Positions 3,571 to 62,681 of a DNA stretch of 64,000 nt are shown here, in pieces. Numbering within the stretch: the first letter of the stretch is position 1; each line of letters starts with the position of its first letter. Both the position numbers and the translations under genes were made by a program. This stretch comes from a virus. The notes under the pieces were generated by a model. It worked only from the letters and a program-made list of their open reading frames with translations, was not told where the DNA came from and did not search any database. The stretch is from positions 1 to 64,000 of the IMG/VR virus record IMGVR_UViG_3300016472_001104; one strand, 5' to 3'.

Positions 3571-3578
3571 ATAGTTAT
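3571..3578 (+). promoter_or_regulatory. ATANTTAW putative late promoter
   Basis: ATAGTTAT 7 nt before ATG 3586; the motif recurs upstream of many genes. Confidence 0.5.
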
Positions 3579-3585
3579 CTATCGT

Positions 3586-3819
3586 ATGAAGATAAAAGTT
3601 TCACATCTAAGAAGCCTAATAAGGGAATGTATTCTTACCGAAGAGGAAATGAGAAACGTTACTTATTTGACACAAGATAACATCGTAAAATTGCTTAAGA
3701 ACTACGGTGTTGATAAGCAGGTTGCATTAGAAGAAGATGTTAAATTTTACGAAATGGTAAAAAAATATTTGAATTCATCAATAGAACTGCAAAAGCGTAT
3801 GCATCAACTTCAAGGTTGA
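3586..3819 (+). CDS. Hypothetical protein with MKI..LR.LI.E leader
   Basis: 77-aa ORF starting MKIKVSHLRSLIRECILTEEE. Confidence 0.7.
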   Translation: MKIKVSHLRSLIRECILTEEEMRNVTYLTQDNIVKLLKNYGVDKQVALEEDVKFYEMVKKYLNSSIELQKRMHQLQG

Positions 3820-14373: not shown

Positions 14374-17300
14374 ATGGCTGAGCAAGTTTTTAGGTCTCCT
14401 AATTTTTTTGAAAGAGAAGTTGAATTAAAGGCGCCGCCTGTAACGGGACCCATCGGGGTACCTGCTGGCGTGATTGGTACTTCCAATAAGGGACCGGCAT
14501 TTGTTCCGGTTACTGTCGCTAGTTTTAATGAATTCGTTAGCATCTTTGGAAACCTGGACCCAAAGAAGTTTGGACCATATGCAGTCAATGAATTTTTGAA
14601 AAACAGATCATCTTTAACCTATATGAGGGTCTTGGGTGCTGGTGCTAATAAAACAATTACAGATATTTCTAACACTGTGACAACCGGTCGTGTAAAAAAT
14701 GCCGGTTTTAAGCTCGAAGGAACAGTTGCATCAGATGATGCAAAAGGAAGGCATGTAGGAGCCGTCCAGTTTTTAGTTGCAGATCACACGCTTCAAGCAA
14801 ATGAAGCATATGGAATGCCAATGTTTACAGACAACGGATCACGATCACAATCAAGTAACATGAGCTTGGTTCGTGGCGTTGTTATGATGGCTGCCGGTGC
14901 AAGAATGATGGTTCTTGATGGCAATCAATCCGTTCCTTCAGCGTTTTCAGGTGCAACAACATTTGATGATGCTGCGCTGGTTAAGTCGGGAAAATTTAAG
15001 CTCGTTATATCTTCAACGCTTGGTTCAACATTTTCTTTTGACGATAAACTTTCCGGAGTGAAAATTTACACGGCTTCAATGAATCCGTCAAGCGATGATT
15101 ACTTTGGTAAGGTTCTTAACAGAGATCCTGAAAAGTTTGAACAGTATCAACACCTTCTTTATTCAGATCTTGCTGTTGATGATGAAGTTGCGACGGTTGT
15201 AAATGACGATTATGTTGCAGTTCTTTCAGGTTCAACCTTGACAAGTACGGTTTCTGGTGAACCGACAACAGAATTTAGAAAGATGTTTGGTGCATTTGAT
15301 ACGAGGTATACTTCACCAAGAACACCTTACTTTATTTCTCAGCCATTCGGTGCAACTGAATATGATCTTTTTGCGGTTGAATCACTTGATGATGGTGCAT
15401 ACGCAAACAGCCTCTACAAGGTTTCCATTTCAAATATCAAGGTTTCAGAAAATGAAGCAGATGAATATGGAACGTTTAATCTTCAAATACGTGATTGGAA
15501 TGACACAGATATCAATCCAATGGTTTTGGAAGAATTTGTTAATTGTTCTTTAAATCCTGACGCTGACAATTATATTGGTAAGCTTGTTGGTGATCGTAAG
15601 GTAACTTATGATTTTGATCAAGATGTTGTCAGCGAAAGAAGAATAATCACCAGTGGAAAGTATGCAAACATATCTAAATACGTTAGGTTGGTGATCAATC
15701 CTTCTGTTGACGACAAGAAGGTTCCTGCTAAATCGCTTCCATTCGGATTTAGAGGCCATGAGGTGATCAAAACAAACGATGCTCTCACCGATGGCGTAAC
15801 TTCAGCGAAGAGGCTGACAGGTTTGTTTGATGCGGATTCAGTTGGTTTCTTATCTCAATCTATCGTTCCTCCTGTGCCTTTTAGGTTCAAGGTGACCAAG
15901 GGTTCAATCACAACACCAGCATGGGATGGTGATCCTGGTCCTCAAGAGGTTGCATCATCCCAGTTCTATTGGGGTGTTAAGTTTGAAAGAAATAATGTAC
16001 CTTTGAATGCAAATCTTTCAGAGTTAAAAAATCCTCTTCTAGAGAGCTTTACAAAATTCTCTGGAATTAAGAAGTTAGATTCTTTGGTGACAGGCTCCGG
16101 TGCTGACTTGTTTAACAACAACAAGTTCTCACTTTCTAAGGTGGCACTATCTGCCGGCACAATTGCAGGATTGACTGGCACGGTTAGATCTCACATGAGA
16201 GAGGCTGCATATGTTAGAAACGCAAAGGTTGATCCTTCAAATTATACGATAAATGATCCTGTTCTTGGAAATCGTGTTACGTTTGCAACACTTCTTTCTA
16301 ATGGTGAACCTTACGAGTTTAACAAGTATTCAACATATGCTAAGTTTACGACCTTTATGCAAGGCGGATTTGATGGTCTTAACATCCTTGATCCGGCTGC
16401 TTCAAGGATGAACGATAAAGCAACATCATTTGAAAATCCTCTTGGTGGTGCTTCAACATCATTCGTATCACCCGGCATGTTAACAAACCTTGCTGGATCT
16501 GGCGTTGATAACAATGCCGTTAACTCATACATCACTGCAGTTGATGTAATGACAGATCCACTTCAGGTGAACGTAAATCTACTCGCAGTTCCAGGAATTC
16601 GTGAAGATTACTTGACAAATTACACCGCAAAGAAAGTTAGAGATTACGGTCTTGCGATGTATGTCATGGATCTTCCAAACTATGACGATAACGATGCAAG
16701 AATTTATGATGATTCTACGAATAGAATCAATATTGAAAACACTGCAGCAACGTTTGAATCAAGGACGTTTGACAACAACTACGTAGCAACTTATTTCCCC
16801 AATGTGTACATAAACGACACAGTCAATAATCGTTACGTTAAAGTTCCTTCTTCAGTTGCAGCACTTGGAGCTTTAGGATTTAATGATAAGGTATCATATC
16901 CATGGTTTGCTCCAGCGGGATTTAACCGCGCTGCCCTTGACTTTGTTAACAACGTTGAAGTCAGATTAAATGTAACTGATCGTGATAGGCTTTACGACGC
17001 AAGAATAAATCCAATTGCAACATTCCCAAGACTTGGATTTGTTATTTACGGTCAAAAGACTTTACAGATCAGAAAATCTGCTCTCGACAGGGTTAACGTT
17101 AGAAGGCTCTTGTTAGAGGTCAAGAGATTGATCATCAGTATCGCAAACAAGATTGTTTTTGAGCAGAACACACCCGCTGTTCGTAACAAGTTTGTTGCTG
17201 ATGCGGTTCTTCAACTAAGCCTCATTCAGGCACAGGCGGGAATTGAAGCATACCAAGTTGTTATGAACGAAACAAACAACACACAAGAGGATGTCGATCT

Positions 17301-17400
17301 TAATCGACTCAACGGAAGGATCGTCGTTGTGCCGACAAGGGCAATAGAGTTTATCGCTATCGACTTTATCGTAACAAATGCCGGTGTCCAGTTCGTTTGA
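14374..17400 (+). CDS. Contractile tail sheath protein 1
   Basis: N-terminal SP..F.RE, G...KGPAFVP, F...FG. C-terminal PWFAPAG.NR, INPI, YGQKTL, LDRVNVRRLL, FEQN, PTRAIEFI. Confidence 0.93.
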   Translation: MAEQVFRSPNFFEREVELKAPPVTGPIGVPAGVIGTSNKGPAFVPVTVASFNEFVSIFGNLDPKKFGPYAVNEFLKNRSSLTYMRVLGAGANKTITDISNTVTTGRVKNAGFKLEGTVASDDAKGRHVGAVQFLVADHTLQANEAYGMPMFTDNGSRSQSSNMSLVRGVVMMAAGARMMVLDGNQSVPSAFSGATTFDDAALVKSGKFKLVISSTLGSTFSFDDKLSGVKIYTASMNPSSDDYFGKVLNRDPEKFEQYQHLLYSDLAVDDEVATVVNDDYVAVLSGSTLTSTVSGEPTTEFRKMFGAFDTRYTSPRTPYFISQPFGATEYDLFAVESLDDGAYANSLYKVSISNIKVSENEADEYGTFNLQIRDWNDTDINPMVLEEFVNCSLNPDADNYIGKLVGDRKVTYDFDQDVVSERRIITSGKYANISKYVRLVINPSVDDKKVPAKSLPFGFRGHEVIKTNDALTDGVTSAKRLTGLFDADSVGFLSQSIVPPVPFRFKVTKGSITTPAWDGDPGPQEVASSQFYWGVKFERNNVPLNANLSELKNPLLESFTKFSGIKKLDSLVTGSGADLFNNNKFSLSKVALSAGTIAGLTGTVRSHMREAAYVRNAKVDPSNYTINDPVLGNRVTFATLLSNGEPYEFNKYSTYAKFTTFMQGGFDGLNILDPAASRMNDKATSFENPLGGASTSFVSPGMLTNLAGSGVDNNAVNSYITAVDVMTDPLQVNVNLLAVPGIREDYLTNYTAKKVRDYGLAMYVMDLPNYDDNDARIYDDSTNRINIENTAATFESRTFDNNYVATYFPNVYINDTVNNRYVKVPSSVAALGALGFNDKVSYPWFAPAGFNRAALDFVNNVEVRLNVTDRDRLYDARINPIATFPRLGFVIYGQKTLQIRKSALDRVNVRRLLLEVKRLIISIANKIVFEQNTPAVRNKFVADAVLQLSLIQAQAGIEAYQVVMNETNNTQEDVDLNRLNGRIVVVPTRAIEFIAIDFIVTNAGVQFV

Positions 17401-17423
17401 TCTCAAAAAACGAAGATAATTTG

Positions 17424-17431
17424 ATATTTAT
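17424..17431 (+). promoter_or_regulatory. ATANTTAW putative late promoter
   Basis: ATATTTAT upstream of sheath 2, which has an AGGAG SD. Confidence 0.45.
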
Positions 17432-17457
17432 CATGCATAGTGTAGGAGCAAGAATAA

Positions 17458-20400
17458 ATGGCACAGCTCAAATTTGGAAGCGCAGGCGTAACTACTAGAG
17501 AAATTGATATCACAGGTCCAGTCGAGGTTGCTCCAACAGGCATTCCGGCAGGAATTATTGGTACATCGGTTAAGGGACCGGCATTTGTTCCCTTAACATA
17601 TGGTACTCTTAGTGATTTCTTCGCAAAATTTGGTCAAAGCGATTCAAAGAAGTTTGGTCCTCTCGCAGTGTCTGAGTGGATGAGAAGGGCAACTTCTGTT
17701 ACTTATCTCAGGGTTTTAGGTGTTGGTGATGGTAAAAAGCGAGTGAGCGCTGGAACAAATTCCGGTGATGTAACCAGTGCAGGATTTACTGTCGGTGAAA
17801 AGTTACCGGGAACAGCTGGGATTTTATCATCAAATCCTTATGCAAATTCTGAAGGTGTTCTTGGAAGAACTTATTTCCTCGGATGCTTCATGTCAGAATC
17901 TGTTGGGTCTACGGTTTTCAGTGATGCAGGTCTACAAGGCCCAGGAAATGCGGGTGGACTTTCTGCAACATCTGCAATACCTCTCGTTCGTGGCGTATTA
18001 ATGGTTCCGTCTGGCGTTGTCATGCGTCTTTCTGCTTCAGCGGCTGGGCTTGATTCAAGCTCTCCATCTTCTACACTTGTCGGTTCTGACGCCGTGGCAA
18101 AGGGAACTTCTCTTGGTTCACTTGTTCTTTCTTCAAACAACGTTTCAAAGCAAGAATTTACCCTTCTTTTAAACGGTCATAAAGGAACCGATGCATTATA
18201 TCCAAATGTTTTAACAGCATCATTTGATGTAACTTCAGCCAATTACATCAGCAAGGTTCTTAATACTGATCCATACAAAATTCAGGAAGCAGGTCACTAC
18301 CTTGCGGCACATTGGGACATTCACCCAACGCTGGCTGTTGTAACTGGCTCCGGCGCAGTGACAGAAGCACCGGTTAACGGAAGTGAAAGATCGGTCTTCC
18401 TTCTTACGTCTTCTTTGTCAAGAGATGCCGGATCGTCAACCGTACCAAATTTTGAAGGATTTAGGAACAGATTTAGTAATGCTAAATCTCCATGGATTAT
18501 ATCACAAAAGTTCGGTGGAGCTCCTGTAAACTTATTTAAGCTTCATGCGTTGGATTCCGGCGCTGGTGTTTCAAATAAATTCAAGGTTTCAATTTATAAC
18601 CTTGTACCATCTACGGATCCAATGAATAGGTACGGTTCATTCAGCATCGGTATTCGAAGCATGACAGATACTGACATTGATCCGAAGTTCCTTGAACGTT
18701 GGGAAGGTGTCAACCTTGATCCATCATCTGATCGTTACGTTGCAAAGGTACTTGGTGACGTTAATGCATATTACGATTTTGATCGTGATGATGCTGCACA
18801 AAAGCTCGTGATTGAAGGAAACTATTCACTAAGATCACGATACGTTAGGGTTGAAGTTTCAGATGCAGTGATCAATCAATCGGTTGATGCATCTGCACTT
18901 CCAATGGGATTCAGGGGAATTAGCCATCTTGTTACGTCTGGTTCTGCACCTCTTGCTCCCCTTGGTGGTGTTGATTCTGCTGCGCTAGCAAGTGCTGGAT
19001 TTATAAGAAACACTGTTGAACCACCTCTACAATTTAGGAATCACCTAAACGATGGATCTGGATTACAGGTTCAAGTTAACTCCCGTTATCATTGGGGCGC
19101 TAAGTTTGAACACATCACAAGTCTAAATGAGCAGAACAGTTCTGTTCTACAAGACAAGTCTTTCAACAGTTTCACAAAGTATTTCCCAGATCACTCGACT
19201 GTGAATATGAATTTTGTTGTCGGCGATAACTCCGGACAAGCAGACACTGCTGCAAATGGAATTCTAGATGCAGACAGGTTCTGTAACAATCTTTTCACCT
19301 TAGAAAACATCAAGATACTAACTGGTTCTAATGGAACAGTAGCACAAAATGATGATTGGAAACACGCTGTTTATGTAAGAAAAGGTAATATTACAACCGA
19401 TGCCTCTGCAAAGACAAGAGCAGTGAATGTAAGCGATCTTAATGTTTCACAGAATCGTAAGTTCCTCAAATTCTCTTTCATACTTCAAGGAGGATTTGAT
19501 GGAGTGAATATCTTTGATCAAAATGAAGCTGAGATCAACAACACGGCTGTCGTTGCAGACATGAACGATTCTAATCGTGGTCTAACAAGCGGTCCAAACG
19601 TATCATCTTACATCAAGGCACTTGATGTTATGAGGAACACGACAAACGTTGACATTCAACTCCTTGCAATCCCGGGAATTCGATGTCCAGCCGTTACTGA
19701 TGAAGCAATCAGGGCGACCGAAGAACGATTTGATGCGCTATACATCATGGATGTTGAGCAGGTAGATAAAGATGGAAACCTAATCAGCATAACATCAAAT
19801 GTCAAGCCGTCTGTTTCAGAGACTGTGACACAACACAGGAATCGTAGTTTGAACACGTCATTTGCTGCGGCGTACTTCCCAGACGTTTTGATGAAGGATC
19901 CAACACTACAATCCAACACGGTTGTTGTTCCTCCCTCTGTCGTCGTTATGGGTGCTCTAGCGTTGAATGACTCTCTTGGTTATCCGTGGTTTGCTCCGGC
20001 TGGTATGACGCGAGGTGAATTACCGACGACCCTTGAGACAAGCATTCAGCTCAAGGATTCTGACCTTGACTCACTTTACGATGATGACATCAATCCGATC
20101 TATTCACCATCGGCGGCGAGAAGCGGATTGAATCCAGCTGGTGGTGTCGTTGTTTGGGGTCAAAAGACACTGCTTCAGACTGCATCTGCACTTGATAGAA
20201 TCAACGTCAGAAGACTTCTTATTGATGTACGTCGTCAGGTTCGTGAAATTGCGCAAACAATTCTCTTTGAGCCCAACCGCGAAGCAACCCTTGCCAAGTT
20301 CTCTGCAGCTGTTACCCCACGACTTCAAAGAATCCAGGCCCTTGCTGGTCTTGAAAGGTTTAGGGTCATCATTGATTCCTCTACGACTACACAGGCAGAC

Positions 20401-20641: not shown

Positions 20642-20649
20642 ATAGTTAT
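20642..20649 (+). promoter_or_regulatory. ATANTTAW putative late promoter
   Basis: ATAGTTAT upstream of sheath 3. Confidence 0.5.
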
Positions 20650-42342: not shown

Positions 42343-42627
42343 ATGGATGATCAACTTAGACATTACATCAGAATGATGCTGCAAGAAATTCTTGCAGAGA
42401 TGAAAGATGACATTCATGAGGATGAGGACAATCTAAAAGAATTTAGCGCGGTTGGCGCAGGTGCAATACAAGGAGTTCCAGGCGTACCTGGGGCTTTATC
42501 TATTTCTGATCCCGGAGGACATTCCATTGAAGGGCCACAGGCTCCTCTAGGAAAGAGTTCCGATGAACCAATTCCGGGAACGAAGAAGAAAAAGAAGCAT
42601 CGCCGCAAAAAGCCAAGTTGGTCGTGA
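42343..42627 (+). CDS. Hypothetical protein with LR.YI...L.E leader
   Basis: MDDQLRHYIRMMLQEILAE..., LKEFS; ATATTTAA 4 nt upstream. Confidence 0.65.
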   Translation: MDDQLRHYIRMMLQEILAEMKDDIHEDEDNLKEFSAVGAGAIQGVPGVPGALSISDPGGHSIEGPQAPLGKSSDEPIPGTKKKKKHRRKKPSWS

Positions 42628-51803: not shown

Positions 51804-52820
51804 ATGATAACATGTTTTATCTGTTCAATAACATTTTCAAACAATTTGGGTGGACAATTAACAAATCATCTAAAAGATACCCATAATATTTCTTTGAAGG
51901 ATTATGTCATCAAATTTGATTACGATGGAAATCCTCCAAAATGTGAATGCGGTATTTGTGAAGATATCCCTGTTTTTTCTAGAGGAAGTTTTCAAAGATA
52001 TGCTTTAAATCATCACAAATTTGAGGTTAGAGAAAAGTTATACATCCAAAAACATGGCAGCCCTAAATGTTATGAATGTCAAAATCCAGTAAAATTCCAT
52101 AGAGGTATTCCAAGGAAGTATTGTTCTGCGAGGTGTGTCGGAAAAAATGTGGGTTTTTCTTTATCAGAGACACAGGATACAATTAAAAAAGTCGTTCAAG
52201 AAAAATACGGAGTCTCTAATGTTTCCAACTTAGACTCTACGAAATCCAAAATTTCAGCTTCTAATTCAGGAAAAACCTGGAAGATGAATGATGAGGGAAA
52301 GAAAAAGATTAGTGAAGCTTCAAAAAAACAATGGACAAATCAAGAATACAGACAAAAAATGTCTGAAGTTGTTTATTCGAAAGAAGAGTTAGAGAGACGT
52401 TCAAAATGGTTAAAAGAGAAAAATAAAGACTTAGAATTTAGAGAAAAAAACTTTAAGAATCACAAAAATAGGCTCAGTAAACTTCATCAAAAAATTAGAG
52501 AAAAATTGAGCCTTGATGACCTAGGCTTTGTTTCAGAACAAAGAGTTTTAAAGTATTTTGTTGATGAGTTAAATGAGGAGAAAAAGTTAATCGTCGAGAT
52601 TTATGGAGATTATCCTCATGCAAATCCTAAAAAGTATTCAGAAGATTTTATTGTAAGATTACATGGTCAATCGTTTACCGCAACAGAAAAACGAGAACAA
52701 GACTTATTAAGAAAAAACAAGTTAGAAGAAGCTGGCTATACTGTCATCGTTGTTTGGGAATCCGACGACATTGAAGAAAAGAAGAAAGAAATAACAAATT
52801 TTTATAGTTATTCAATATGA
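51804..52820 (+). CDS. Free-standing homing endonuclease-like protein (Zn fingers plus DUF559/Vsr-like domain)
   Basis: C2H2 finger, YCSARC, EKYGVSN, EQ...YFVD...IVEIYGDYPH, D..R...LEEAGY.VIVVWE. Confidence 0.7.
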   Translation: MITCFICSITFSNNLGGQLTNHLKDTHNISLKDYVIKFDYDGNPPKCECGICEDIPVFSRGSFQRYALNHHKFEVREKLYIQKHGSPKCYECQNPVKFHRGIPRKYCSARCVGKNVGFSLSETQDTIKKVVQEKYGVSNVSNLDSTKSKISASNSGKTWKMNDEGKKKISEASKKQWTNQEYRQKMSEVVYSKEELERRSKWLKEKNKDLEFREKNFKNHKNRLSKLHQKIREKLSLDDLGFVSEQRVLKYFVDELNEEKKLIVEIYGDYPHANPKKYSEDFIVRLHGQSFTATEKREQDLLRKNKLEEAGYTVIVVWESDDIEEKKKEITNFYSYSI

Positions 52821-53149
52821 AAATGAAGGTTAAAGAGCTTCGCCGCATAATTCGAGAGAATTATGCTCGTGAGATTCCTCAATATGCCATTGATGATACA
52901 TGCCTGAAAGTTATCAAGTTGAAGATGAATCCCTCTCAGGCCGCAGATTATTGTAGAGAACAGCTTGAACACTACTTCAAGATGCACATCAATTCTACGT
53001 CAAATAGTCCTGCTGATATGCGTTATAAAATTGTTAAAATGCACCAAGTGTTTGATGACATGGAAGAAGAAATTCGAAAGTTGAAAAATCTAAAAGATAA
53101 TTTAAAAGATGTCGTAGATCAATGTGTGAGACGTTTTTTGTTTATTTGA
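52817..53149 (+). CDS. Hypothetical protein with MKVKELRRIIRE leader
   Basis: 110-aa ORF; ATAGTTAT 5 nt upstream. Confidence 0.7.
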   Translation: MKMKVKELRRIIRENYAREIPQYAIDDTCLKVIKLKMNPSQAADYCREQLEHYFKMHINSTSNSPADMRYKIVKMHQVFDDMEEEIRKLKNLKDNLKDVVDQCVRRFLFI

Positions 53150-56971: not shown

Positions 56972-57004
56972 AAAATGCATATGACCCCTTCCATTTCATA
57001 AAAC

Positions 57005-57063
57005 AGTGATTATCTTTGTCTTGTAACGACGGATTAACCGTCGCAATTGAAAGGAGAATCATT
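57005..57063 (+). promoter_or_regulatory. Candidate RNA thermometer (SD-sequestering hairpin) of hsp20
   Basis: AGUGAUUAUCUUU pairs with AAAGGAGAAUCAUU, with one A.G mismatch and G-U pairs, around an inner CGACGG/CCGUCG stem. Confidence 0.55.
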
Positions 57064-57066
57064 AAA

Positions 57067-57426
57067 ATGTTATCCAGATACTATGATACTATTCGTACGC
57101 CGATGTTCGATCTCATCGACCCATTGAGAGTTTTTTCTGACCTTGAAACAACTTCGTTACGTCATCGATCAGATACGATAGATGATGAAGGTATCAAAAT
57201 AGAACTTCCAGGTGTAAAAGCTGAGGATGTTGAGGTGACACTTGATGGCAGGTCATTGAAAGTTTCAGGAAAAACACGACATGGTAGGGAATTTAGTTAT
57301 TCTTACTCCTTAAAACCAAGTGTTGATGATTCTGCCGTCACAGCCAGCCTTAAGGACGGTCTTCTATCAATTTCTTTGCCCCTGAAACAAGAAAGCACTT
57401 CAAGAAAAATTCAAATCATTTCTTAA
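57067..57426 (+). CDS. Small heat-shock protein (Hsp20, alpha-crystallin)
   Basis: ELPGVK.EDVEV......LKVSG, F......P..VD...VTASLKDGLLSISLP, RKIQI. Confidence 0.92.
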   Translation: MLSRYYDTIRTPMFDLIDPLRVFSDLETTSLRHRSDTIDDEGIKIELPGVKAEDVEVTLDGRSLKVSGKTRHGREFSYSYSLKPSVDDSAVTASLKDGLLSISLPLKQESTSRKIQIIS

Positions 57427-57455
57427 TTTTTAAAATTTAAAGCGTTCAAAAAGAT

Positions 57456-57490
57456 AAGGCCCTTCCTCAACGGTTGGGCCTTTTTGTTTT
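57456..57490 (+). terminator. Intrinsic terminator after hsp20
   Basis: AAGGCCC...GGGCCTT followed by TTTGTTTT. Confidence 0.65.
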
Positions 57491-57497
57491 GTTGATT

Positions 57498-57505
57498 ATA
57501 GTTAT
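57498..57505 (+). promoter_or_regulatory. ATANTTAW putative late promoter
   Basis: ATAGTTAT immediately after the terminator, upstream of ATG 57532. Confidence 0.5.
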
Positions 57506-57531: not shown

Positions 57532-58035
57532 ATGAAAATCACTAAGACACAGTTACAGACAATAATCCGTGAAGAGTACGTCAAGGTATTGTTTGAATCA
57601 CAGGGCAAAAAGATTTCTCAATCCCAGGCAAAGATCTTGGCTGAGAATCTTGAAGAAGGAATTTGGGATTCAATTGGAAAAGGAATCGAAGCCTATAAGT
57701 CATCTAGGGCTGAAGAAAAATCAGCTCAACAAATACAGAAGAATAAAAGCGCAGTTGAAAAAACTAAAAAAGATTTAAGACGCAACATTGGTACGATTCG
57801 CGAGCAAGCAAAAGACATACTACGAAAACACGGATTTGTAGGCCCTAACGAAACCGGAGTTTATCTTTTTGAGGATGCTGCATTAGAAATTTTAGGATTT
57901 AATGAAGACCTGAAAAGGGAAGCTCTTGGTCTATTAAGGGGTAGTAGAAAATTGCCTTCAAAGGACGAGTCTGGAGCTGAAGTTGAATCTGGCGGGTATC
58001 AACCCGGTATGGGAATGTTTGGATCAAGACGATAA
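57532..58035 (+). CDS. Hypothetical protein with MKITKTQLQTIIREE leader (putative head-internal protein)
   Basis: AGGTG SD; leader motif; LFES and NLEEGIWD. Confidence 0.75.
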   Translation: MKITKTQLQTIIREEYVKVLFESQGKKISQSQAKILAENLEEGIWDSIGKGIEAYKSSRAEEKSAQQIQKNKSAVEKTKKDLRRNIGTIREQAKDILRKHGFVGPNETGVYLFEDAALEILGFNEDLKREALGLLRGSRKLPSKDESGAEVESGGYQPGMGMFGSRR

Positions 58036-58058
58036 CAAAATTTTAAGTAAAGATACTT

Positions 58059-58088
58059 GCAACGCTTTTACTCATGTAAAAGCGTTGT
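58059..58088 (+). terminator. Hairpin, probable terminator
   Basis: GCAACGCTTTTAC-TCAT-GTAAAAGCGTTGT. Confidence 0.6.
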
Positions 58089-58111
58089 GTTGTTTATAAT
58101 ATCTAAAAATC

Positions 58112-58531
58112 ATGACTGACGAAGAAGATCTTCAACTATGTCAAAAATATCCAAAGATCTTTAAACATCGCAATGAATCTATTATGGAAACATGCATGGC
58201 ATGGGGTTTTGAGTGTGGATCTGGATGGTATAACATCATTGATACACTATGTTATCAAATTCAACAACATGTTGACTGGAAATCTAAGAATCTTTCAGAA
58301 GAAGAAAAAGAATCTTTTCAAGTCATTGCCGATCAAGTGAAAGAAAAGTTTGGAACGCTTAGGTTCTATTATCACGGTGGTGATGATTTTGTCGAAGGTC
58401 TTGTTAACATGGCCGAATCAATGTCATCATTGACATGCGAAAGGTGTGGATCTCCAGGTATAAAAAGAACCAAGGGATGGATTGTTACGTTGTGTGATTC
58501 TTGCAATGATAAAAAGGAAATTCAAGGATGA
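58112..58531 (+). CDS. Conserved phage hypothetical protein
   Basis: GFECGSGW, QVKEKFGTLRFY, CERCG.PG...GW..TLC..C. Confidence 0.75.
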   Translation: MTDEEDLQLCQKYPKIFKHRNESIMETCMAWGFECGSGWYNIIDTLCYQIQQHVDWKSKNLSEEEKESFQVIADQVKEKFGTLRFYYHGGDDFVEGLVNMAESMSSLTCERCGSPGIKRTKGWIVTLCDSCNDKKEIQG

Positions 58532-59361
58532 AATTAGCGTGGGCAACGGATCTACACCTTGACATGGCTGGTGACTTATTGGGAAAAATCAACCAGCTTT
58601 CAGTTTCATCAAAGGATTGTGATGCGGTTCTTCTCACTGGTGACATTTCAATTTCAAATTTTGTCGTCCAACATCTTTCAATGTTGGAAACGATGTTAGA
58701 GAAACCCATCTATTTTGTGTTAGGAAATCATGACTACTACGGTTCAAGCTTCAATATCGTTAGAAAAAACGTTGTTGACCTGTGTCGTTCTTCTTCATAC
58801 CTCAGGTACATGACGGCAACACCATACATTAAACTTGGTGATGGCAAATACCTTGTGGGACACGATGGTTGGTATGATGCCCAGAATGGAAATCCTCACG
58901 GTAATTCGATATTCATGAATGATTGGATGCAGATATCGAATTATAATTCAGCACTACGAGGATCGTATGGAGGATTTGGAATCAATAAAAACGTCATCAT
59001 TGACATATCACGTAGGTTGGCTCAGGACTCTGTGAATCACATTGCAAATGCAATTAAGGCCGTGATAAAGAATAGTGAGCACATTGTTGTTATGACACAC
59101 GTTCCTCCTTTTCGTGAATCTTTCAACGCTGCTGACAAATATAAGGGAGTGTCTGTCATGGAAGTCATTCCATGGTACACGTCAAAGATTATGGGTGATA
59201 CGTTGATTGCTGCTGCGAAGGCGTATCCTGGAGTCAAATTTACAGTTCTTTCTGGACACGTTCACAGTCATTATGATGACGATCTTTTGAACAACCTAAA
59301 TGTGAAAGTTGGCCGTGCAATTTATGGGAATCCGCAGTTGGCAAATAAGCTATCAATTTAA
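58528..59361 (+). CDS. Calcineurin-like metallophosphoesterase
   Basis: TDLHL, TGDIS, GNHDYY, THVPP, SGHVH. Confidence 0.9.
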   Translation: MKLAWATDLHLDMAGDLLGKINQLSVSSKDCDAVLLTGDISISNFVVQHLSMLETMLEKPIYFVLGNHDYYGSSFNIVRKNVVDLCRSSSYLRYMTATPYIKLGDGKYLVGHDGWYDAQNGNPHGNSIFMNDWMQISNYNSALRGSYGGFGINKNVIIDISRRLAQDSVNHIANAIKAVIKNSEHIVVMTHVPPFRESFNAADKYKGVSVMEVIPWYTSKIMGDTLIAAAKAYPGVKFTVLSGHVHSHYDDDLLNNLNVKVGRAIYGNPQLANKLSI

Positions 59362-59377
59362 TTATTATCAGGGCGGT

Positions 59378-59908
59378 ATGAAAAGATCGCTGTTATTAAA
59401 CTCAAACGGAGAACCTTTACAATTCATCAGTGAGGTAAGGGCAATCAAATTGATGCTTAGCGGCCGCGCTGATCCTCAAAGCGGGCTTAGTGGAGCACCA
59501 TCATACTGGGATGATGAATACAAAAGTTGTAGCTATAGCTTTAAGCTTCCTGCAGTGTTAAGATTAAAAAGATACATTAGCAGAAAAATAGACAGAAACC
59601 CACCAAGGTTTCAAAAAAGGGTACTATTCAATAGAGATTCTTGGTGTTGTCAGTATTGCGGAATAAACCTTAGCTATTCTGCTATAACCATTGATCATGT
59701 TGTTCCTGTTTGCAAAGGTGGACCAACGACGTGGTTCAACTGTGTTGCAGCTTGCAAACCTTGCAACAGAAAAAAAGGAGGAAAGACGCTTGAAGAATCT
59801 GGGTTGCACCTCTCAAAGAGACCCATAGAACCTTCTGCTCTTCACTTTTGGGACATATCAAAATCATCTGTGTGGCACGATGATTGGACAATGTTTGTAA
59901 ACGTTTAA
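59378..59908 (+). CDS. HNH endonuclease (McrA-like)
   Basis: LLLNS..EPL, PAVLRL..Y, RD..CCQYCG, TIDHVVP...GG..TW.NCVAAC..CN.KKG. Confidence 0.9.
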   Translation: MKRSLLLNSNGEPLQFISEVRAIKLMLSGRADPQSGLSGAPSYWDDEYKSCSYSFKLPAVLRLKRYISRKIDRNPPRFQKRVLFNRDSWCCQYCGINLSYSAITIDHVVPVCKGGPTTWFNCVAACKPCNRKKGGKTLEESGLHLSKRPIEPSALHFWDISKSSVWHDDWTMFVNV

Positions 59909-59946
59909 TATATTAGACATCGTTTACAAAACAGCATTCGTCATAA

Positions 59947-59954
59947 ATAGTTAT
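59947..59954 (+). promoter_or_regulatory. ATANTTAW putative late promoter
   Basis: ATAGTTAT followed by AGGAG, heading the 59973-62681 operon. Confidence 0.5.
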
Positions 59955-59972
59955 GCTAGGAGTTTTTTGCCC

Positions 59973-61052
59973 ATGCGTTTGAAGTTATCTGATCTACAGA
60001 GAGTCGTAAAAGAGACTTTGCACGAAAAAAAACGTAACGACGTTTTTTGTGATGAAATTAAAAAGGCATTTGGTCCGTCTGTCGTCATCAAAGAAGATCT
60101 TGCTTCTCTTGCTGAATCTGCAAACGAGCACTTGGATGTTTTGGAATATAAAGGCCAATTGAACACCGTCAATTTTTCTCAAAAAATTGCAAGGGTCATG
60201 TCGAATCACGAATTGGCCGACGTGCGGAAGCTTGCAGCCAGGTTGTTACCTGAAGGTACGACGTCATCACTTCTCCTTGATAAAAGTGAAAAGGTCAGGT
60301 ATGCAGCGTCAAAAAGGGCATCTGTCACAGAGTTAAAGACTGCGTTAAGGAAGTTTCCTAATGATGTCGTTCTTCGTGAGGCGCTTGAAACTCGCAGGAT
60401 GTCTGAGACAAAAAATGCCTTAGAATCAGCCGCAACAGACGATAAGGTTGACATGTTGAGTGAGGAATGGTACACAAGCGTTGCAAGGAAACTGATACAG
60501 GATTATGGAAGGACGCTTGATACCACATGGAAAAATTCCGCGGTAAAAACATTCTGTTCATCATCAAGATCTGTAACAAGGTTACCCATTGATTCTGAGA
60601 AGCTGTTGGGTAAGATCAATGAACTTCTTGATGAGTATGAAATCAATCGTGCAAAAGAATTGGGCCTGTCGCTGAAGGAAGGTCTAGTGTTAAGCGAAGG
60701 TTTTTCTGACGATGAGGAAGAAGTCGATCCAGTTTTGGAGATGGTTAATGAGGGTTTAACTCCACAGGAATTCATTGATCGCTTTAAAGACGTTGCGAAC
60801 GTAAAGTTTGCAGTGCTACCTCCGTCCATCATGAAATACAAGATCAGGGAAGGTCTTTCATTACAAAAAATTCCAGTTTCATGCACGCTGCCTCACGGTG
60901 GTGCCCCAAGAAGGATTGATGAGGTTGCGTTGGATTCTTTTGTGAAGCATTGGAATGAAAAGCAAAAGATCAAGGGTGAACCATTTAGGATGTCTTGGAC
61001 ACAACATCCTGATTCTCAAGATAAGATCAGCTTTAAGTTGGAGTTGAAGTGA
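59973..61052 (+). CDS. Hypothetical protein with MRLKLSDLQRVVKE leader and HEAT-like repeats
   Basis: Leader motif; DVRKLAAR and KVRYAAS repeats; multiple LxE sites. Confidence 0.7.
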   Translation: MRLKLSDLQRVVKETLHEKKRNDVFCDEIKKAFGPSVVIKEDLASLAESANEHLDVLEYKGQLNTVNFSQKIARVMSNHELADVRKLAARLLPEGTTSSLLLDKSEKVRYAASKRASVTELKTALRKFPNDVVLREALETRRMSETKNALESAATDDKVDMLSEEWYTSVARKLIQDYGRTLDTTWKNSAVKTFCSSSRSVTRLPIDSEKLLGKINELLDEYEINRAKELGLSLKEGLVLSEGFSDDEEEVDPVLEMVNEGLTPQEFIDRFKDVANVKFAVLPPSIMKYKIREGLSLQKIPVSCTLPHGGAPRRIDEVALDSFVKHWNEKQKIKGEPFRMSWTQHPDSQDKISFKLELK

Positions 61053-61612
61053 TGAAAAGAAAAAGACTTTCAGAGTCCGTTGAAATGATTTTGACGGTTG
61101 AACCAAATCTCAATGTTGTTCTTGAGAACATGCTGGCAGAGTGGGGAAACGTTCCGTATCCTCAACTTTCTGTAGCCCTTGTTCACCTGAAGTACCTCTA
61201 TGCACTTCACCAGAATCATCATTGGACTGCAATGGGTGATTCGTATTATGGTGATCATCTTCTATTCCAAAGGTTATATGATGGAATTCTTAAGGAAATT
61301 GACACACTTGCTGAAAAATCGATAGGTCTAGGTTGTGTAGGAAACGTAGATTTGCACCTTCAACACAGTCAATTGCTAAGGTTGGTGACAGGTCAAGGAT
61401 CGGCATCCATGATTCCACAGTCTTCTGATCTTGCAAAAAAATCATTGATGGCCGAGATGAACTTTTTATCTGTCATGAAGCACCTTTGCGATTCTCTCAA
61501 AGAATGTGGATTGATGACACATGGCCTCGACAACCTGCTTGCAGGAATTGAGGATGCACACGAAGGTCACGTATACCTACTAAAACAGAGGATTTCAAGA
61601 TCTCTGGTGTGA
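61049..61612 (+). CDS. Dps/ferritin-like protein
   Basis: HQNHHW...G..YYGDHLLFQRLY....EIDTLAEK, and C-terminal EDAHE.HVYLL. Confidence 0.75.
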   Translation: MMKRKRLSESVEMILTVEPNLNVVLENMLAEWGNVPYPQLSVALVHLKYLYALHQNHHWTAMGDSYYGDHLLFQRLYDGILKEIDTLAEKSIGLGCVGNVDLHLQHSQLLRLVTGQGSASMIPQSSDLAKKSLMAEMNFLSVMKHLCDSLKECGLMTHGLDNLLAGIEDAHEGHVYLLKQRISRSLV

Positions 61613-61620
61613 GGAAAATC

Positions 61621-62073
61621 ATGAGAATTACAACAACACAACTTCGCCAAATTATTAAAGAGGAAGTTACAAAATTACAAGAACAAGTAGAAGATCCAGA
61701 AGATAAAGCATTAACTGATTTTTTGAATGTTGTTAGTGAAAGCTGGAAAAATTCAGAAGTGGGTCGGGTCTCTGGTAGGATTATTTGGGAAGGTCAAGTT
61801 GATGATGCGATTGCCGATTTAAAAGAAAAGATAAAGGAAATTGTTTCTAGCATTTATAATAAACTCGAAAGAGGAAAATACAAACAAGGCCAATTAGACG
61901 TGCTAGGTATATTCAACAATCTATTAAAAAGATTTGGAAAAGTTTCTGTCGATGAATTGTCTTTTGGACTTGGGATGACAACAGATGATCTTATATCATC
62001 TGGTGATTTGGAGTTATCTGGTCTAGAAGTAATAGACGGTTATGTTGTTAAAAAACGAGGAATAAGATTATGA
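61621..62073 (+). CDS. Hypothetical protein with MRITTTQLRQIIKEE leader
   Basis: GAGGA SD; leader motif. Confidence 0.75.
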   Translation: MRITTTQLRQIIKEEVTKLQEQVEDPEDKALTDFLNVVSESWKNSEVGRVSGRIIWEGQVDDAIADLKEKIKEIVSSIYNKLERGKYKQGQLDVLGIFNNLLKRFGKVSVDELSFGLGMTTDDLISSGDLELSGLEVIDGYVVKKRGIRL

Positions 62074-62681
62074 AGATTACAACGCAACAATTACGTCTGA
62101 TTATCAAAGAAGAGCTTGAAAAGCAAACACAAAGTGTGAAAGATCCAAACACTGGTAAAAGCTACGGAATTACCGTTGGAATTTCAGATCCAGTTTCACG
62201 TTCAATTCACCTCAGCTTTGGATCTGCATTTTCAATTACGTTGGCAAAAAAGGATGCGGAGAGATTAATTCAAGAAGTTCAATCAGTTTTGGCTGGGGTA
62301 CCTGATGAAGATGATGAAGATAGACGACGTCATGATCTTTTATCCTATTATGAAAACAGGTATGAAGAAGAAGTTCATGGTAGATCACCTCCCGCAGATG
62401 ACTATGATTTGTTTATTGGACCACCTGAAAAAAGACTATCGATTGAAGAGCTAGAAAAGTTTGTTAATGAATTTGATGAACCAGTTGTTCCCGGTTCTAA
62501 AAAGTCGTCACAACGAACTTCTTTTTCTGAGGATATTCTTTCATCGATCAGAAAAAAACTTGAATCAAAATCTGAACCAACCGGTCGTCGTCTATCAGAA
62601 TCTCATGCACGTATTACCGAAGAAGAGATGAGGGCATGGTTAAGTGGTGACTGGGGATTTGTTTCAGAAGAAAACGAGTGA
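62070..62681 (+). CDS. Hypothetical protein with MKITTQQLRLIIKEE leader
   Basis: Coupled by ATGA overlap; leader motif; acidic. Confidence 0.75.
   Translation: MKITTQQLRLIIKEELEKQTQSVKDPNTGKSYGITVGISDPVSRSIHLSFGSAFSITLAKKDAERLIQEVQSVLAGVPDEDDEDRRRHDLLSYYENRYEEEVHGRSPPADDYDLFIGPPEKRLSIEELEKFVNEFDEPVVPGSKKSSQRTSFSEDILSSIRKKLESKSEPTGRRLSESHARITEEEMRAWLSGDWGFVSEENE

What the first reader, a model, noticed from the sequence alone, without database searches (positions are those of the whole stretch)
57532..62681. Shared N-terminal leader on unrelated proteins: candidate capsid-targeting and protein-delivery system
Seen: proteins with no other visible similarity begin with the same ~15-aa amphipathic motif. 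These are MKITKTQLQTIIREE (57532), MRITTTQLRQIIKEE (61621), MKITTQQLRLIIKEE (62070), MRLKLSDLQRVVKET (59973), MKVKELRRIIREN (52817), MKIKVSHLRSLIREC (3586) and, more weakly, DQLRHYIRMMLQE (42343). Each sits behind the ATANTTAW motif or in an operon headed by it, and several carry further L/I-x-E sites. Established: T4 internal proteins use a short N-terminal capsid-targeting sequence that the gp21 prohead protease removes after Glu, and they are injected with the DNA. Inference: this is a portable address tag that loads a variable cargo set into the head for delivery at infection.
Basis: partly seen in the sequence, partly recalled or inferred. Interest (0 to 1): 0.8.

Follow-up and report, generated by a model that had tools for sequence, protein, structure and literature searches.

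The report
Shared capsid-address leader on phage proteins
An uncultured giant marine T4-type phage starts at least four unrelated small proteins with the same 14-15-residue tag, which ends in the cutting motif of the T4-type head protease, so it most likely loads variable proteins into the phage head as T4 does with its three internal proteins, though on a far larger scale and without bench proof.

Summary
Four ORFs (57532, 59973, 61621, 62070) start at residue 1 with M-K/R-I/L-T/K-x-x-x-L-x-x-I/V-I/V-K/R-E. They score 13-24 bits against a profile built only from non-window proteins; reversed-sequence controls reach 3.9 bits. ORF 52817 is borderline, 3586 is a diverged variant, and 42343 belongs to a second leader class.

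The bodies share no BLAST similarity. Codons differ between copies, so selection acts on the protein.

The leader (consensus MKITKSQLKQIIKEE) heads 5,270 protein clusters in public metagenomes. It occurs 17-35 times per genome in related 240-293 kb phages and is essentially absent from cellular genomes and cultured phages.

Seven of nine leader-bearing viral records encode a T4 gp21-type (S77) prohead protease. Conservation stops at an almost invariant Glu14 within I-x-E, which is the gp21 cleavage motif. Canonical leader genes lie inside the head gene module in two relatives, and a conserved head-module protein begins with a leader-like sequence.

Best reading (about 0.6): a T4-CTS-like prohead address tag that the protease removes. 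Packaging, cleavage and injection are untested. The cargo is mostly acidic, unlike T4's basic internal proteins.

This scan has reported analogous leaders with other sequences on other phage DNA, but not this one.

The parts
57532..58035 (+). Leader protein, 167 aa. The leader is residues 1-14 (57532-57573). The body has no known family and pI 9.1.
   Evidence: Leader profile 20.3 bits. No significant Pfam or PHROG hit. Orthologues keep the leader (P0088, P0093, P0097).
59973..61052 (+). Leader protein, 359 aa, with the variant leader MRLKLSDLQRVVKE. The body is helical repeats followed by an alpha/beta C-terminal domain.
   Evidence: Profile 13.0 bits. The six aligned homologues (59-62% identical to the window protein) keep the same variant leader. 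In the AF2 model the leader is helix 5-17 at pLDDT about 40 and is not packed on the body. No Foldseek PDB match.
61621..62073 (+). Leader protein, 150 aa, with an acidic body (pI 4.8).
   Evidence: Profile 24.0 bits, the best in the window. No family hit. Atlas structure hits are weak, TM <= 0.41.
62070..62681 (+). Leader protein, 203 aa, with an acidic body (pI 4.8). It overlaps the stop of the previous leader gene, which suggests translational coupling.
   Evidence: Profile 16.5 bits. Homologues share only the leader and a second module.
62592..62669 (+). Second conserved module of ORF 62070 (L-x-E-x-H-x-R-I-T ... A-W ... G-D-W-G-F-V-S-E). In homologues it is combined with different neighbouring modules.
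   Evidence: Invariant columns in the alignment of 12 proteins. It occurs once in this contig and not at all in G002.
52817..53149 (+). Borderline leader protein, 110 aa. The leader is shortened and shifted (MKMKVKELRRIIRE).
   Evidence: Profile 7.2 bits against a control maximum of 3.9. ATAGTTA lies 13 nt upstream.
3586..3819 (+). Diverged leader-like N-terminus, 77 aa. Its 'I-R-E-C-I-L' ending resembles the head-module variant 'V-K-E-C-L-V'.
   Evidence: Profile 3.0 bits, inside the control range, but aligned over model positions 1-14 at residue 1. Compare the head-module protein alignment.
42343..42627 (+). Member of a second leader class (x-x-L-R-H-Y-I-R-x-M-L-x-E), not of the MKITK class.
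   Evidence: A pattern scan finds it once here and in 12 ORFs of G002, eight with a Met 3 residues before the motif and two more with one within 7.
57498..57504 (+). ATAGTTA promoter-like motif. Further copies lie at 3571, 52804 and 59947 before leader genes, and at 20642 and 35838 before structural genes.
   Evidence: 8 copies on the + strand and 0 on the - strand; 7 of 8 lie 7-31 nt before a start codon.

Best explanation
The 14-residue N-terminal leader is a portable address tag of the T4 'capsid targeting sequence' type. Its consensus is M-K-I-T-K-x-Q-L-K/R-x-I-I-K/R-E, usually followed by a second Glu.

Proposed mechanism:
1. The short amphipathic helix docks the newly made protein onto the scaffolding core of the assembling prohead.
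2. The phage's gp21-type (S77) serine protease cuts after Glu14, at the site I12-x-E14.
3. The cut frees a body that differs from gene to gene.

Shown here:
- The tag exists, and its position at residue 1 is strict.
- Selection acts at the protein level, and the bodies are unrelated.
- The tag is restricted to a clade of giant T4-type phages that encode the protease.
- Conservation ends at the predicted scissile Glu.
- Tagged genes lie inside head gene modules in relatives.

Inferred, not shown:
- Binding to the core, cleavage, and presence in virions.
- Whether the freed bodies stay in the head and enter the host with the DNA, or are expelled like scaffold fragments.
For: 1. Lineage and protease. 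All five 240-293 kb leader-bearing IMG/VR records encode Peptidase_S77 above Pfam's cut-off, as do two of four smaller fragments. The G002 enzyme is 31% identical to T4 gp21, with the regions around ALGE-x-HP and SSRG-x-GS aligned. The window phage belongs to this clade: its neck and sheath proteins are 46% and 49% identical to those of G002 and lie in the same order.

2. Cleavage logic. T4 gp21 cuts after L/I-x-E (PMC9026906). In 438 leaders from 120 viral loci, position 12 is Ile in 421, position 14 is Glu in 428 and Asp in only 2, and position 15 is Glu in 355 and Ala in 43. Information content is 2-5 bits per position up to residue 15 and below 1.1 bits after it. Among 25 paralogues in one genome, conservation stops exactly at Glu14. 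In T4, Asp in place of the CTS Glu blocks processing (PMC9026906), which fits the near-exclusion of Asp here.

3. Shape shared with T4 propeptides. IPII (MKTYQEFIAE) and gp24 (MAKINELLRE) follow hydrophobic-x-x-hydrophobic-hydrophobic-x-Glu, as does L8-x-x-I11-I12-x-E14 here; gp22 (MLKEQLIAE) ends in the same hydrophobic-hydrophobic-x-Glu.

4. Head-module position. In G004, four canonical leader ORFs lie between the major capsid gene and the neck genes. In G008, one lies directly upstream of the protease gene. In five relatives (G001-G005), the second gene after the protease encodes a ~140-aa protein whose most conserved part is a leader-like N-terminus, and G008 carries a homologue in its head module. 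The G004 copy matches the leader profile at E = 0.009 per genome.

5. Candidate sites in known gp21-type substrates of relatives. The protease has I/L-x-E near its N-terminus in all five orthologues, and the capsid protein has L-R-E-A.

6. Virus-specific distribution. More than 120 IMG/VR loci carry the leader. Only 9 stretches in 5 MAGs carry it among 185,579 species genomes, and 3 of those MAGs also carry an S77 protease.

7. Precedent. [quoted passage not shown]
Against: - This 92-kb fragment (CheckV 26% complete) has no S77 protease or head genes of its own. The link to the protease comes from relatives, and because they form one clade the co-occurrence is phylogenetically confounded.
- In the window, and in most relatives, the leader genes lie far from the head module, among auxiliary genes.
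- Timing of expression is unknown. The exact ATAGTTA motif is shared with two structural genes, but the relaxed motif also precedes a 1338-aa gene at 47734 and other non-structural genes.
- There are 17-35 tagged genes per genome, against 3-4 in T4.
- The bodies are mostly strongly acidic: median pI 4.35, against 6.0 for other small proteins of G002. That sits awkwardly with co-packaging next to DNA.
- Every position of the leader is conserved, not only the hydrophobic face. T4's CTS tolerates more variation.
- The head-module small proteins show no detectable homology to T4 gp67, gp68 or gp22.
Confidence: 0.6

Rival explanations
1. The leader takes proteins into the prohead, but they are not delivered cargo. 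They would be expendable acidic components of the scaffolding core, cut and expelled before or during DNA packaging like T4 gp67, gp68 and gp22 fragments.
For: - The bodies are small (median 104 aa) and strongly acidic, with median pI 4.35.
- T4 gp67 has an acidic tail and an internal L-I-K-E-E stretch.
- In T4, core proteins are cleaved into fragments that mostly leave the head (PMC9026906).
- A conserved head-module protein carries a leader-like N-terminus.
Against: - A scaffold role does not explain why the bodies are unrelated and turn over so fast between genomes.
- It does not explain why some bodies carry enzyme-like or other defined domains: HD, zinc ribbon, PGDYG plus DUF6321.
- Some bodies are basic; 7 of 38 have pI above 8.
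Confidence: 0.2
2. The leader is a docking helix for some other partner and is never cut by the head protease. The partner could be a host protein, a membrane, a chaperone or another phage assembly. The tagged proteins would be ordinary intracellular host-takeover or anti-defence proteins.
For: - Most tagged genes form arrays of small, tightly packed ORFs away from the head genes, as host-takeover genes of large phages do.
- All 15 positions are conserved, including the polar ones, which suggests a specific receptor.
- The window's tagged genes lie beside Hsp20 and other auxiliary genes.
Against: - No candidate partner gene travels with the leader. Hsp70 is present in 1 of 5 genomes and SET in 2 of 5.
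- This reading does not explain the near-absolute Glu (not Asp) at position 14, or the sharp end of conservation there.
- It does not explain canonical leader genes between the capsid and neck genes.
Confidence: 0.15
3. The leader is a recognition sequence for a modifying enzyme, in the manner of RiPP precursors, with one maturase serving many precursors.
For: - The layout matches: many precursors with one conserved leader and variable remainders.
- A SET-domain methyltransferase gene abuts the leader array in G002 and G005, and the leader is rich in Lys.
Against: - Radical-SAM genes are absent from the three near-complete leader-rich genomes G001-G003.
- SET is absent from G001, G003 and G004.
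- The bodies are 70-420 aa rather than short Cys/Ser/Thr-rich cores.
Confidence: 0.04
4. The conservation serves the nucleic acid rather than the protein. It would be a shared translation-initiation region, or a recombination site that shuffles gene cassettes.
For: - The context around the start is stereotyped (...AAA ATG AAA), with a Shine-Dalgarno-like sequence upstream in 78% of N-terminal copies.
- In-frame fusions, tandem leaders and nested arrays show frequent recombination between leader genes.
Against: - Codons differ freely between copies in one genome while the amino acids are kept.
- Conservation follows amino-acid classes (I/V, K/R) and a helical hydrophobic pattern, and it ends at a specific Glu.
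- Recombination at leaders is compatible with, and expected under, the address-tag reading.
Confidence: 0.05

Closest known systems
Phage T4 capsid targeting sequence (CTS) of internal proteins IPI, IPII and IPIII, processed by prohead protease gp21
   Same: - A short N-terminal tag at residue 1 on otherwise unrelated proteins.
- It ends in hydrophobic-x-Glu, the gp21 cleavage motif.
- It has the same hydrophobic-x-x-hydrophobic-hydrophobic-x-Glu spacing.
- The phage lineage encodes a gp21-family S77 protease and a gp23-type capsid protein.
- The cargo genes are hypervariable.
   Different: - 14-15 residues instead of 10, with no detectable sequence homology to MKTYQEFIAE.
- Every position is conserved.
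- 17-35 tagged genes per genome instead of 3.
- More than 5,000 protein clusters in metagenomes.
- Mostly acidic bodies, whereas T4 internal proteins are basic.
- A second leader class coexists in the same genomes.
- No experimental evidence of packaging or cleavage.
N-terminal propeptides of T4 head proteins gp24 and gp22, and core protein gp67
   Same: - The N-termini of gp24 and gp22 have the same pattern and end in L/I-x-E, and gp67 contains L-I-K-E-E.
- A conserved head-module protein of this clade has a leader-like N-terminus.
   Different: The clade's head-module small proteins are not detectably homologous to gp67, gp68 or gp22. Here the same tag is also spread over dozens of non-head genes.
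Propeptide-bearing head and ejection proteins of giant phages phiKZ, 201phi2-1 and SPN3US
   Same: - Giant phages that pack many different proteins into the head.
- All these proteins are cut after Glu by a diverged gp21-like protease (PMC9026906).
   Different: - Those phages use S/A-x-E sites and long, non-uniform propeptides, not one fixed 14-residue tag.
- They belong to a different phage lineage.
- Their packaging is shown by proteomics.
Cargo-loading peptides of encapsulins and N-terminal loading signals of contractile injection systems (PVC/eCIS)
   Same: A short portable peptide that addresses diverse cargo to the inside of a protein shell or tube.
   Different: - Encapsulin tags are usually C-terminal and are not removed.
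- PVC signals are about 50 residues long and disordered.
- Neither is linked to a Glu-specific maturation protease.
- This comparison rests on my own knowledge and was not tested here.

Membership tests
T4-type capsid targeting sequence (CTS) | The tag lies at the extreme N-terminus of the protein. | tested here: met
   Leu8 is fixed relative to the first ATG in five window ORFs. In 440 leaders from viral loci, 404 have Met at model position 1, and the median distance from the upstream stop is 9 residues.
T4-type capsid targeting sequence (CTS) | The tag ends in the gp21 cleavage motif L/I-x-E. | tested here: met
   Position 12 is Ile in 421 of 438 and position 14 is Glu in 428 of 438 (Asp in 2). 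Conservation stops at Glu14. The motif definition comes from PMC9026906.
T4-type capsid targeting sequence (CTS) | The same phage encodes a gp21-family prohead protease. | tested here: inconclusive
   Not present on this 92-kb fragment, which is 26% complete. Present in 7 of 9 leader-bearing viral records, including all five of 240-293 kb, and in 3 of 5 leader-bearing MAGs.
T4-type capsid targeting sequence (CTS) | The tag is attached to proteins that are otherwise unrelated. | tested here: met
   3 of 703 body pairs match at E<=1e-3, and 2 of those are nested ORFs. Pfam and PHROGs find no shared family.
T4-type capsid targeting sequence (CTS) | Sequence relationship to the T4 CTS MKTYQEFIAE. 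| tested here: not met
   Only the hydrophobic spacing and the terminal Glu are shared. A 20-aa T4 IPII N-terminal query finds 319 phage records, the ten commonest first words of whose names are enterobacterial genera and Tequatrovirus. The MKITK consensus finds only one weak match (55% identity, E = 5), to an uncultured phage, in the same collection. I therefore file this as 'works like', not as a homologue.
T4-type capsid targeting sequence (CTS) | Tagged proteins are found in the virion with the tag removed. | not testable with these tools
   No cultured relative exists: the closest capsid proteins in cultured phages are 37-47% identical. No proteome was available.
T4-type capsid targeting sequence (CTS) | The tag is sufficient to load a foreign protein into the head. 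| not testable with these tools
   This needs a bench test.
T4-type capsid targeting sequence (CTS) | Co-expression with head morphogenesis genes. | tested here: inconclusive
   Canonical leader genes lie inside head modules in G004 and G008, and ATAGTTA is shared with two structural genes. Most leader genes lie elsewhere, and the relaxed promoter-like motif is not specific to structural genes.
RiPP-like leader recognised by a dedicated modifying enzyme | A conserved maturase gene lies next to the tagged genes. | tested here: not met
   Radical-SAM genes are absent from G000-G003. SET is present in 2 of 5 genomes and Hsp70 in 1 of 5.

The most novel reading that the evidence does not exclude
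A whole clade of uncultured giant marine T4-type phages uses one or two fixed 14-residue address tags to turn the capsid into a multi-effector delivery device. Dozens of rapidly exchanged, mostly highly acidic small proteins per genome would be loaded into the prohead, trimmed at Glu14 and injected ahead of gene expression. These could be DNA mimics and other anti-defence or host-takeover factors. If so, the 5,270 tagged clusters would be a ready-made catalogue of injected phage effectors.
Probability: 0.3. Interest if true: 0.8.

Novelty: new variant of a known kind. Interest (0 to 1): 0.66.

Why it matters
If the tag works as proposed, it generalises T4's three-protein curiosity into a large system that can be recognised from sequence alone. 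A 15-residue string would pick out thousands of candidate virion-packaged proteins in ocean metagenomes, most of them of unknown function.

That would make one part of viral 'dark matter' directly testable:
- Semi-specific searches of marine viral metaproteomes for N-termini starting at residue 15.
- Protease assays on leader-reporter fusions.
- Screens of the acidic bodies for anti-defence activity.

It would also provide a second natural address tag, in addition to the T4 CTS, for loading foreign proteins into T4-type capsids.

The full-text library searched holds no paper containing the motif strings and none describing expanded CTS-like families in marine T4-type phages.

Tried and rejected
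The 220,954-bp contig that carries these same proteins could not be fetched to look for this phage's own protease.
The planned test of the leader against the protease and two head-module proteins was not run.
- Pfam and PHROGs on the window's leader proteins gave nothing above threshold.
- The search for related loci found no relative using the 62070 protein. The leader alignment was too variable for that tool.
- The AF2 model of the 59973 family had mean pLDDT 65, Foldseek against PDB gave no hit at E<=0.001, and the Atlas search for 61621 gave TM <= 0.41. No function could be assigned to these bodies.
- The head-module small proteins compared with T4 gp68, gp67 and gp22 showed no homology. 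Calling them 'core proteins' rests on gene position only.
- Hsp70, SET and radical-SAM were tested as universal partner genes and rejected.
- K-mer enrichment upstream of G002 genes recovered mainly Shine-Dalgarno-like words and no clear promoter motif, so expression timing in G002 could not be inferred.
- The extra candidates on 64-92 kb listed in note e1-6027366 (80972, 83422, 86379 and others) do not rise above controls with the MKITK profile.
- Cultured phages: there was no usable match to the leader consensus and no match to the head-module 143-aa protein.

Full report
WHAT THE WINDOW IS

The window is the first 64 kb of a 92,041-bp viral record that CheckV rates 26% complete. It encodes three ~1000-aa tail sheath paralogues, a tube protein, baseplate and neck proteins, and nucleotide-metabolism and auxiliary genes. 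A search of the 57-63 kb region against GenBank phage records found no match.

Its neck and sheath proteins are 46% and 49% identical to those of G002 and lie in the same order. G002 is a complete 293,409-bp IMG/VR genome with terminal repeats. I therefore used G002 and four other 240-290 kb records (G001, G003-G005) as relatives.

THE OBSERVATION

A pattern scan of all six frames shows that L-x-x-[hydrophobic]-[hydrophobic]-[K/R/Q/N]-E occurs with a Met exactly 7 residues upstream in five ORFs: 3586, 57532, 59973, 61621 and 62070.

I then built a profile from 101 distinct leaders of proteins not encoded by this contig and scanned the contig. Scores were 24.0 bits (61621), 20.3 (57532), 16.5 (62070), 13.0 (59973), 7.2 (52817) and 3.0 (3586). 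The reversed-sequence control maximum was 3.9.

This gives four certain members and one borderline member. ORF 3586 is a diverged variant whose '...I-R-E-C-I-L' ending resembles a head-module protein described below. ORF 42343 belongs to a second leader class, x-x-L-R-(E/K/H)-Y-I-R-x-L-L-x-E. That pattern matches 12 ORFs in G002, ten of them with a Met within 7 residues upstream.

Codons differ freely between copies, for example ATGAAAATCACTAAG against ATGAGAATTACAACA, so conservation acts on the protein. With the first 18 residues removed, the six window proteins and 32 G002 leader proteins give only 3 BLAST pairs out of 703 at E<=1e-3, and two of those are nested ORFs. Pfam and PHROGs find no shared family.

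HOW WIDESPREAD IT IS

- A leader-only profile retrieved 2,612 proteins at E<=10 from the 5.8-billion-protein collection. Of the 120 best listed, all but about ten start with the motif at residue 1.
- An exhaustive HMMER scan of 1.84 billion cluster representatives found 5,270 with E<=0.001.
- The consensus is MKITKSQLKQIIKEE. Information content is 2-5 bits at every one of positions 1-15 and at most 1.0 bit from position 16 on.
- In those 1.04 Mb I count 440 leaders of at least 12 bits. Of these, 404 have Met at position 1, and the median distance from the upstream stop is 9 residues. The median protein length is 104 aa, and one locus holds 19 leaders.
- The five relatives carry 17-35 leader ORFs each: G001 and G003-G005 have 17-25, and G002 about 35. 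In G002 they are all on one strand and grouped in arrays.
- The same DNA pattern found only 9 stretches, all in 5 metagenome bins, among 185,579 prokaryotic species genomes. Three of those bins also contain an S77 protease, so they probably include giant-phage contigs.
- Cultured-phage records have no real match. A positive control with a 20-residue T4 IPII N-terminal query found 319 records.
- No paper in the library contains the motif strings.

WHY I READ IT AS A PROHEAD ADDRESS TAG

1. The lineage has the right protease. Peptidase_S77, the family of T4 gp21, is found above Pfam's cut-off in all five large leader-bearing records and in two of four smaller fragments. The G002 enzyme is 31% identical to gp21. 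The capsid protein is gp23-type.

2. The tag ends where gp21 would cut. T4 gp21 cleaves after L/I-x-E. In the T4 CTS, the residues needed for processing are the Ile and the Glu, and Asp in place of Glu blocks processing (PMC9026906). In this leader, position 12 is Ile in 421 of 438, position 14 is Glu in 428 of 438 with Asp in only 2, and position 15 is Glu or Ala. Among 25 paralogues of G002, conservation ends exactly at Glu14. A purely structural or electrostatic role would tolerate Asp.

3. The hydrophobic spacing L8-x-x-I11-I12-x-E14 matches that of T4's IPII (Y-x-x-F-I-x-E) and gp24 (I-x-x-L-L-x-E) N-terminal propeptides.

4. Position in the genome. In G001-G005 the head module runs: portal, a 280-aa protein, the protease, a 120-150-aa protein, then a ~140-aa protein. 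The most conserved part of that ~140-aa protein is its N-terminus, M-A-K-x-x-[K/R]-x-x-L-K-x-[I/L]-[I/V]-K-E-C-L-x-E-I-L. Next comes a ~100-aa protein with L-L-K-K-L-V-L-Q-E. The G004 copy of the ~140-aa protein matches the leader profile at E = 0.009 for that genome. In G004, four canonical leader ORFs lie directly between the capsid gene and the neck genes. In the more distant G008, a canonical leader ORF lies directly upstream of the protease gene.

5. Candidate L/I-x-E sites are conserved near the protease N-terminus and in the capsid protein N-terminal region (L-R-E-A). This suggests that the T4 cleavage rule is retained.

WHAT DOES NOT FIT OR IS UNKNOWN

- This fragment carries no head genes or protease. 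Its leader genes lie among Hsp20, a dUTPase_2-family gene, a metallophosphoesterase, an HNH nuclease, a Dps-like protein and a GMP reductase.
- The exact heptamer ATAGTTA is strand-specific and sits before four leader genes, sheath gene 3 and a baseplate-region gene. The looser ATANTTAW-type pattern has no strand bias and also precedes non-structural genes, so 'late' expression is not established.
- The bodies are mostly strongly acidic. Median pI is 4.35 and 29 of 38 are below pI 6, against a median of 6.0 for other small G002 proteins. T4's packaged internal proteins are basic (my own knowledge). The acidic bodies may therefore be core components that are expelled, or DNA-mimic-like effectors. 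I cannot tell which.
- Many proteins carry two or three leaders: every one of the 150 best exhaustive hits has 2-3 matched stretches. Of 28 internal copies, 18 keep a Shine-Dalgarno-like sequence upstream, against 13% background. They therefore look like in-frame fusions of neighbouring leader genes. That is tolerable if the protease separates the parts, but it is also compatible with internal initiation.

RIVALS

- A tag for a modifying enzyme. Note e1-127136 of this scan reached this reading for another phage tag. It finds no support here: radical-SAM genes are absent from three near-complete leader-rich genomes, SET is present in 2 of 5 and Hsp70 in 1 of 5.
- A nucleic-acid-level signal. 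The codon variation argues against it.
- A docking helix for another partner. This cannot be excluded, but it does not explain the Glu-not-Asp rule, the sharp boundary of conservation or the head-module copies.

OTHER FEATURES IN THE FINDING'S INTERVAL

- ORF 62070 also has a second conserved module near its C-terminus (62592-62669). In homologues it is combined with different neighbouring modules.
- The 59973 family is conserved at 59-62% identity between the window protein and the six aligned homologues. Its AF2 model has a detached low-confidence leader helix, helical repeats and an alpha/beta C-terminal domain, with no PDB match.

COMPARISON AND NOVELTY

Functionally the closest system is the T4 CTS with gp21 processing. 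[quoted passage not shown] This leader is not a sequence homologue of the T4 CTS. It is longer, far more strictly conserved, and expanded to dozens of genes per genome and thousands of clusters. It coexists with a second class and carries mostly acidic cargo. I rate it a new variant of a known kind.

Earlier agents of this scan reported analogous CTS-like leaders with other sequences (for example MIKLKDLLKE) and protease-jointed polyproteins on other marine T4-type phage DNA.

VERDICT

- Confidence in the prohead-tag mechanism is about 0.6.
- Interest is 0.66.

Noticed in passing
window 42343-42627; G002 0.2-3.8 kb and 282.9-291.8 kb (L128, L142): A second N-terminal leader class (M-N-L-L-R-E-Y-I-R-E-L-L-x-E) matches 12 ORFs in G002, eight with a Met 3 residues upstream, and one ORF in the window. 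It is also 14 residues long and also ends in hydrophobic-hydrophobic-x-Glu.
   Followed up: partly
window 62592-62669: A strongly conserved 26-residue module (H-A-R-I-T-E-E-E ... G-D-W-G-F-V-S-E) lies near the C-terminus of ORF 62070. In metagenomic homologues it is recombined with different flanking modules. Its function is unknown.
   Followed up: partly
G002, leader arrays at 46-58 kb, 267 kb and 284-286 kb: Leader-bearing bodies are unusually acidic. Median pI is 4.35 and net charge reaches -25 in about 150 aa. This hints at DNA mimics or expendable core proteins.
   Followed up: partly
IMG/VR loci L003, L042, L060, L063, L069 and the top hits: Many ORFs carry two or three complete leaders, including the Met. 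Internal copies mostly keep a Shine-Dalgarno-like sequence upstream, so neighbouring leader genes have fused in frame.
   Followed up: partly
G002 56991-57491 and G005 17222-17575: A SET-domain methyltransferase gene directly abuts the leader array in two of five relatives. It is absent from the other three.
   Followed up: yes
G002 281033-282907, 264955-265776; window 57067-57426: Chaperone genes lie next to leader genes: a full-length Hsp70 and a gene whose N-terminus reads like a J domain (by eye, not searched) in G002, and Hsp20 directly upstream of 57532 in the window. Hsp70 is present in only 1 of 5 relatives.
   Followed up: partly
G002 176269-178167 and 178261-180150: Two tandem gp23-type major capsid genes whose products share an identical first 70 residues. 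In G004, four leader genes occupy the place of the second copy.
   Followed up: no
window 3571, 20642, 35838, 51792, 52804, 57498, 59947: The heptamer ATAGTTA occurs only on the + strand (8 vs 0), almost always 7-31 nt before a start codon. Several of these genes would then have very short or no 5' leaders.
   Followed up: partly
GTDB loci L144-L152 (for example NHDW01000006.1, 305,838 bp, labelled Methylococcaceae TMED69): Five metagenome bins with unrelated taxonomic labels contain contigs with MKITK leaders, and three of them also have an S77 protease. These are probably giant-phage contigs binned with bacteria.
   Followed up: partly
G002 286576-289347: A 923-aa ORF next to a leader array combines DUF192, a poly(A)/CCA-adding polymerase head domain and a PAP2 phosphatase domain.
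   Followed up: no
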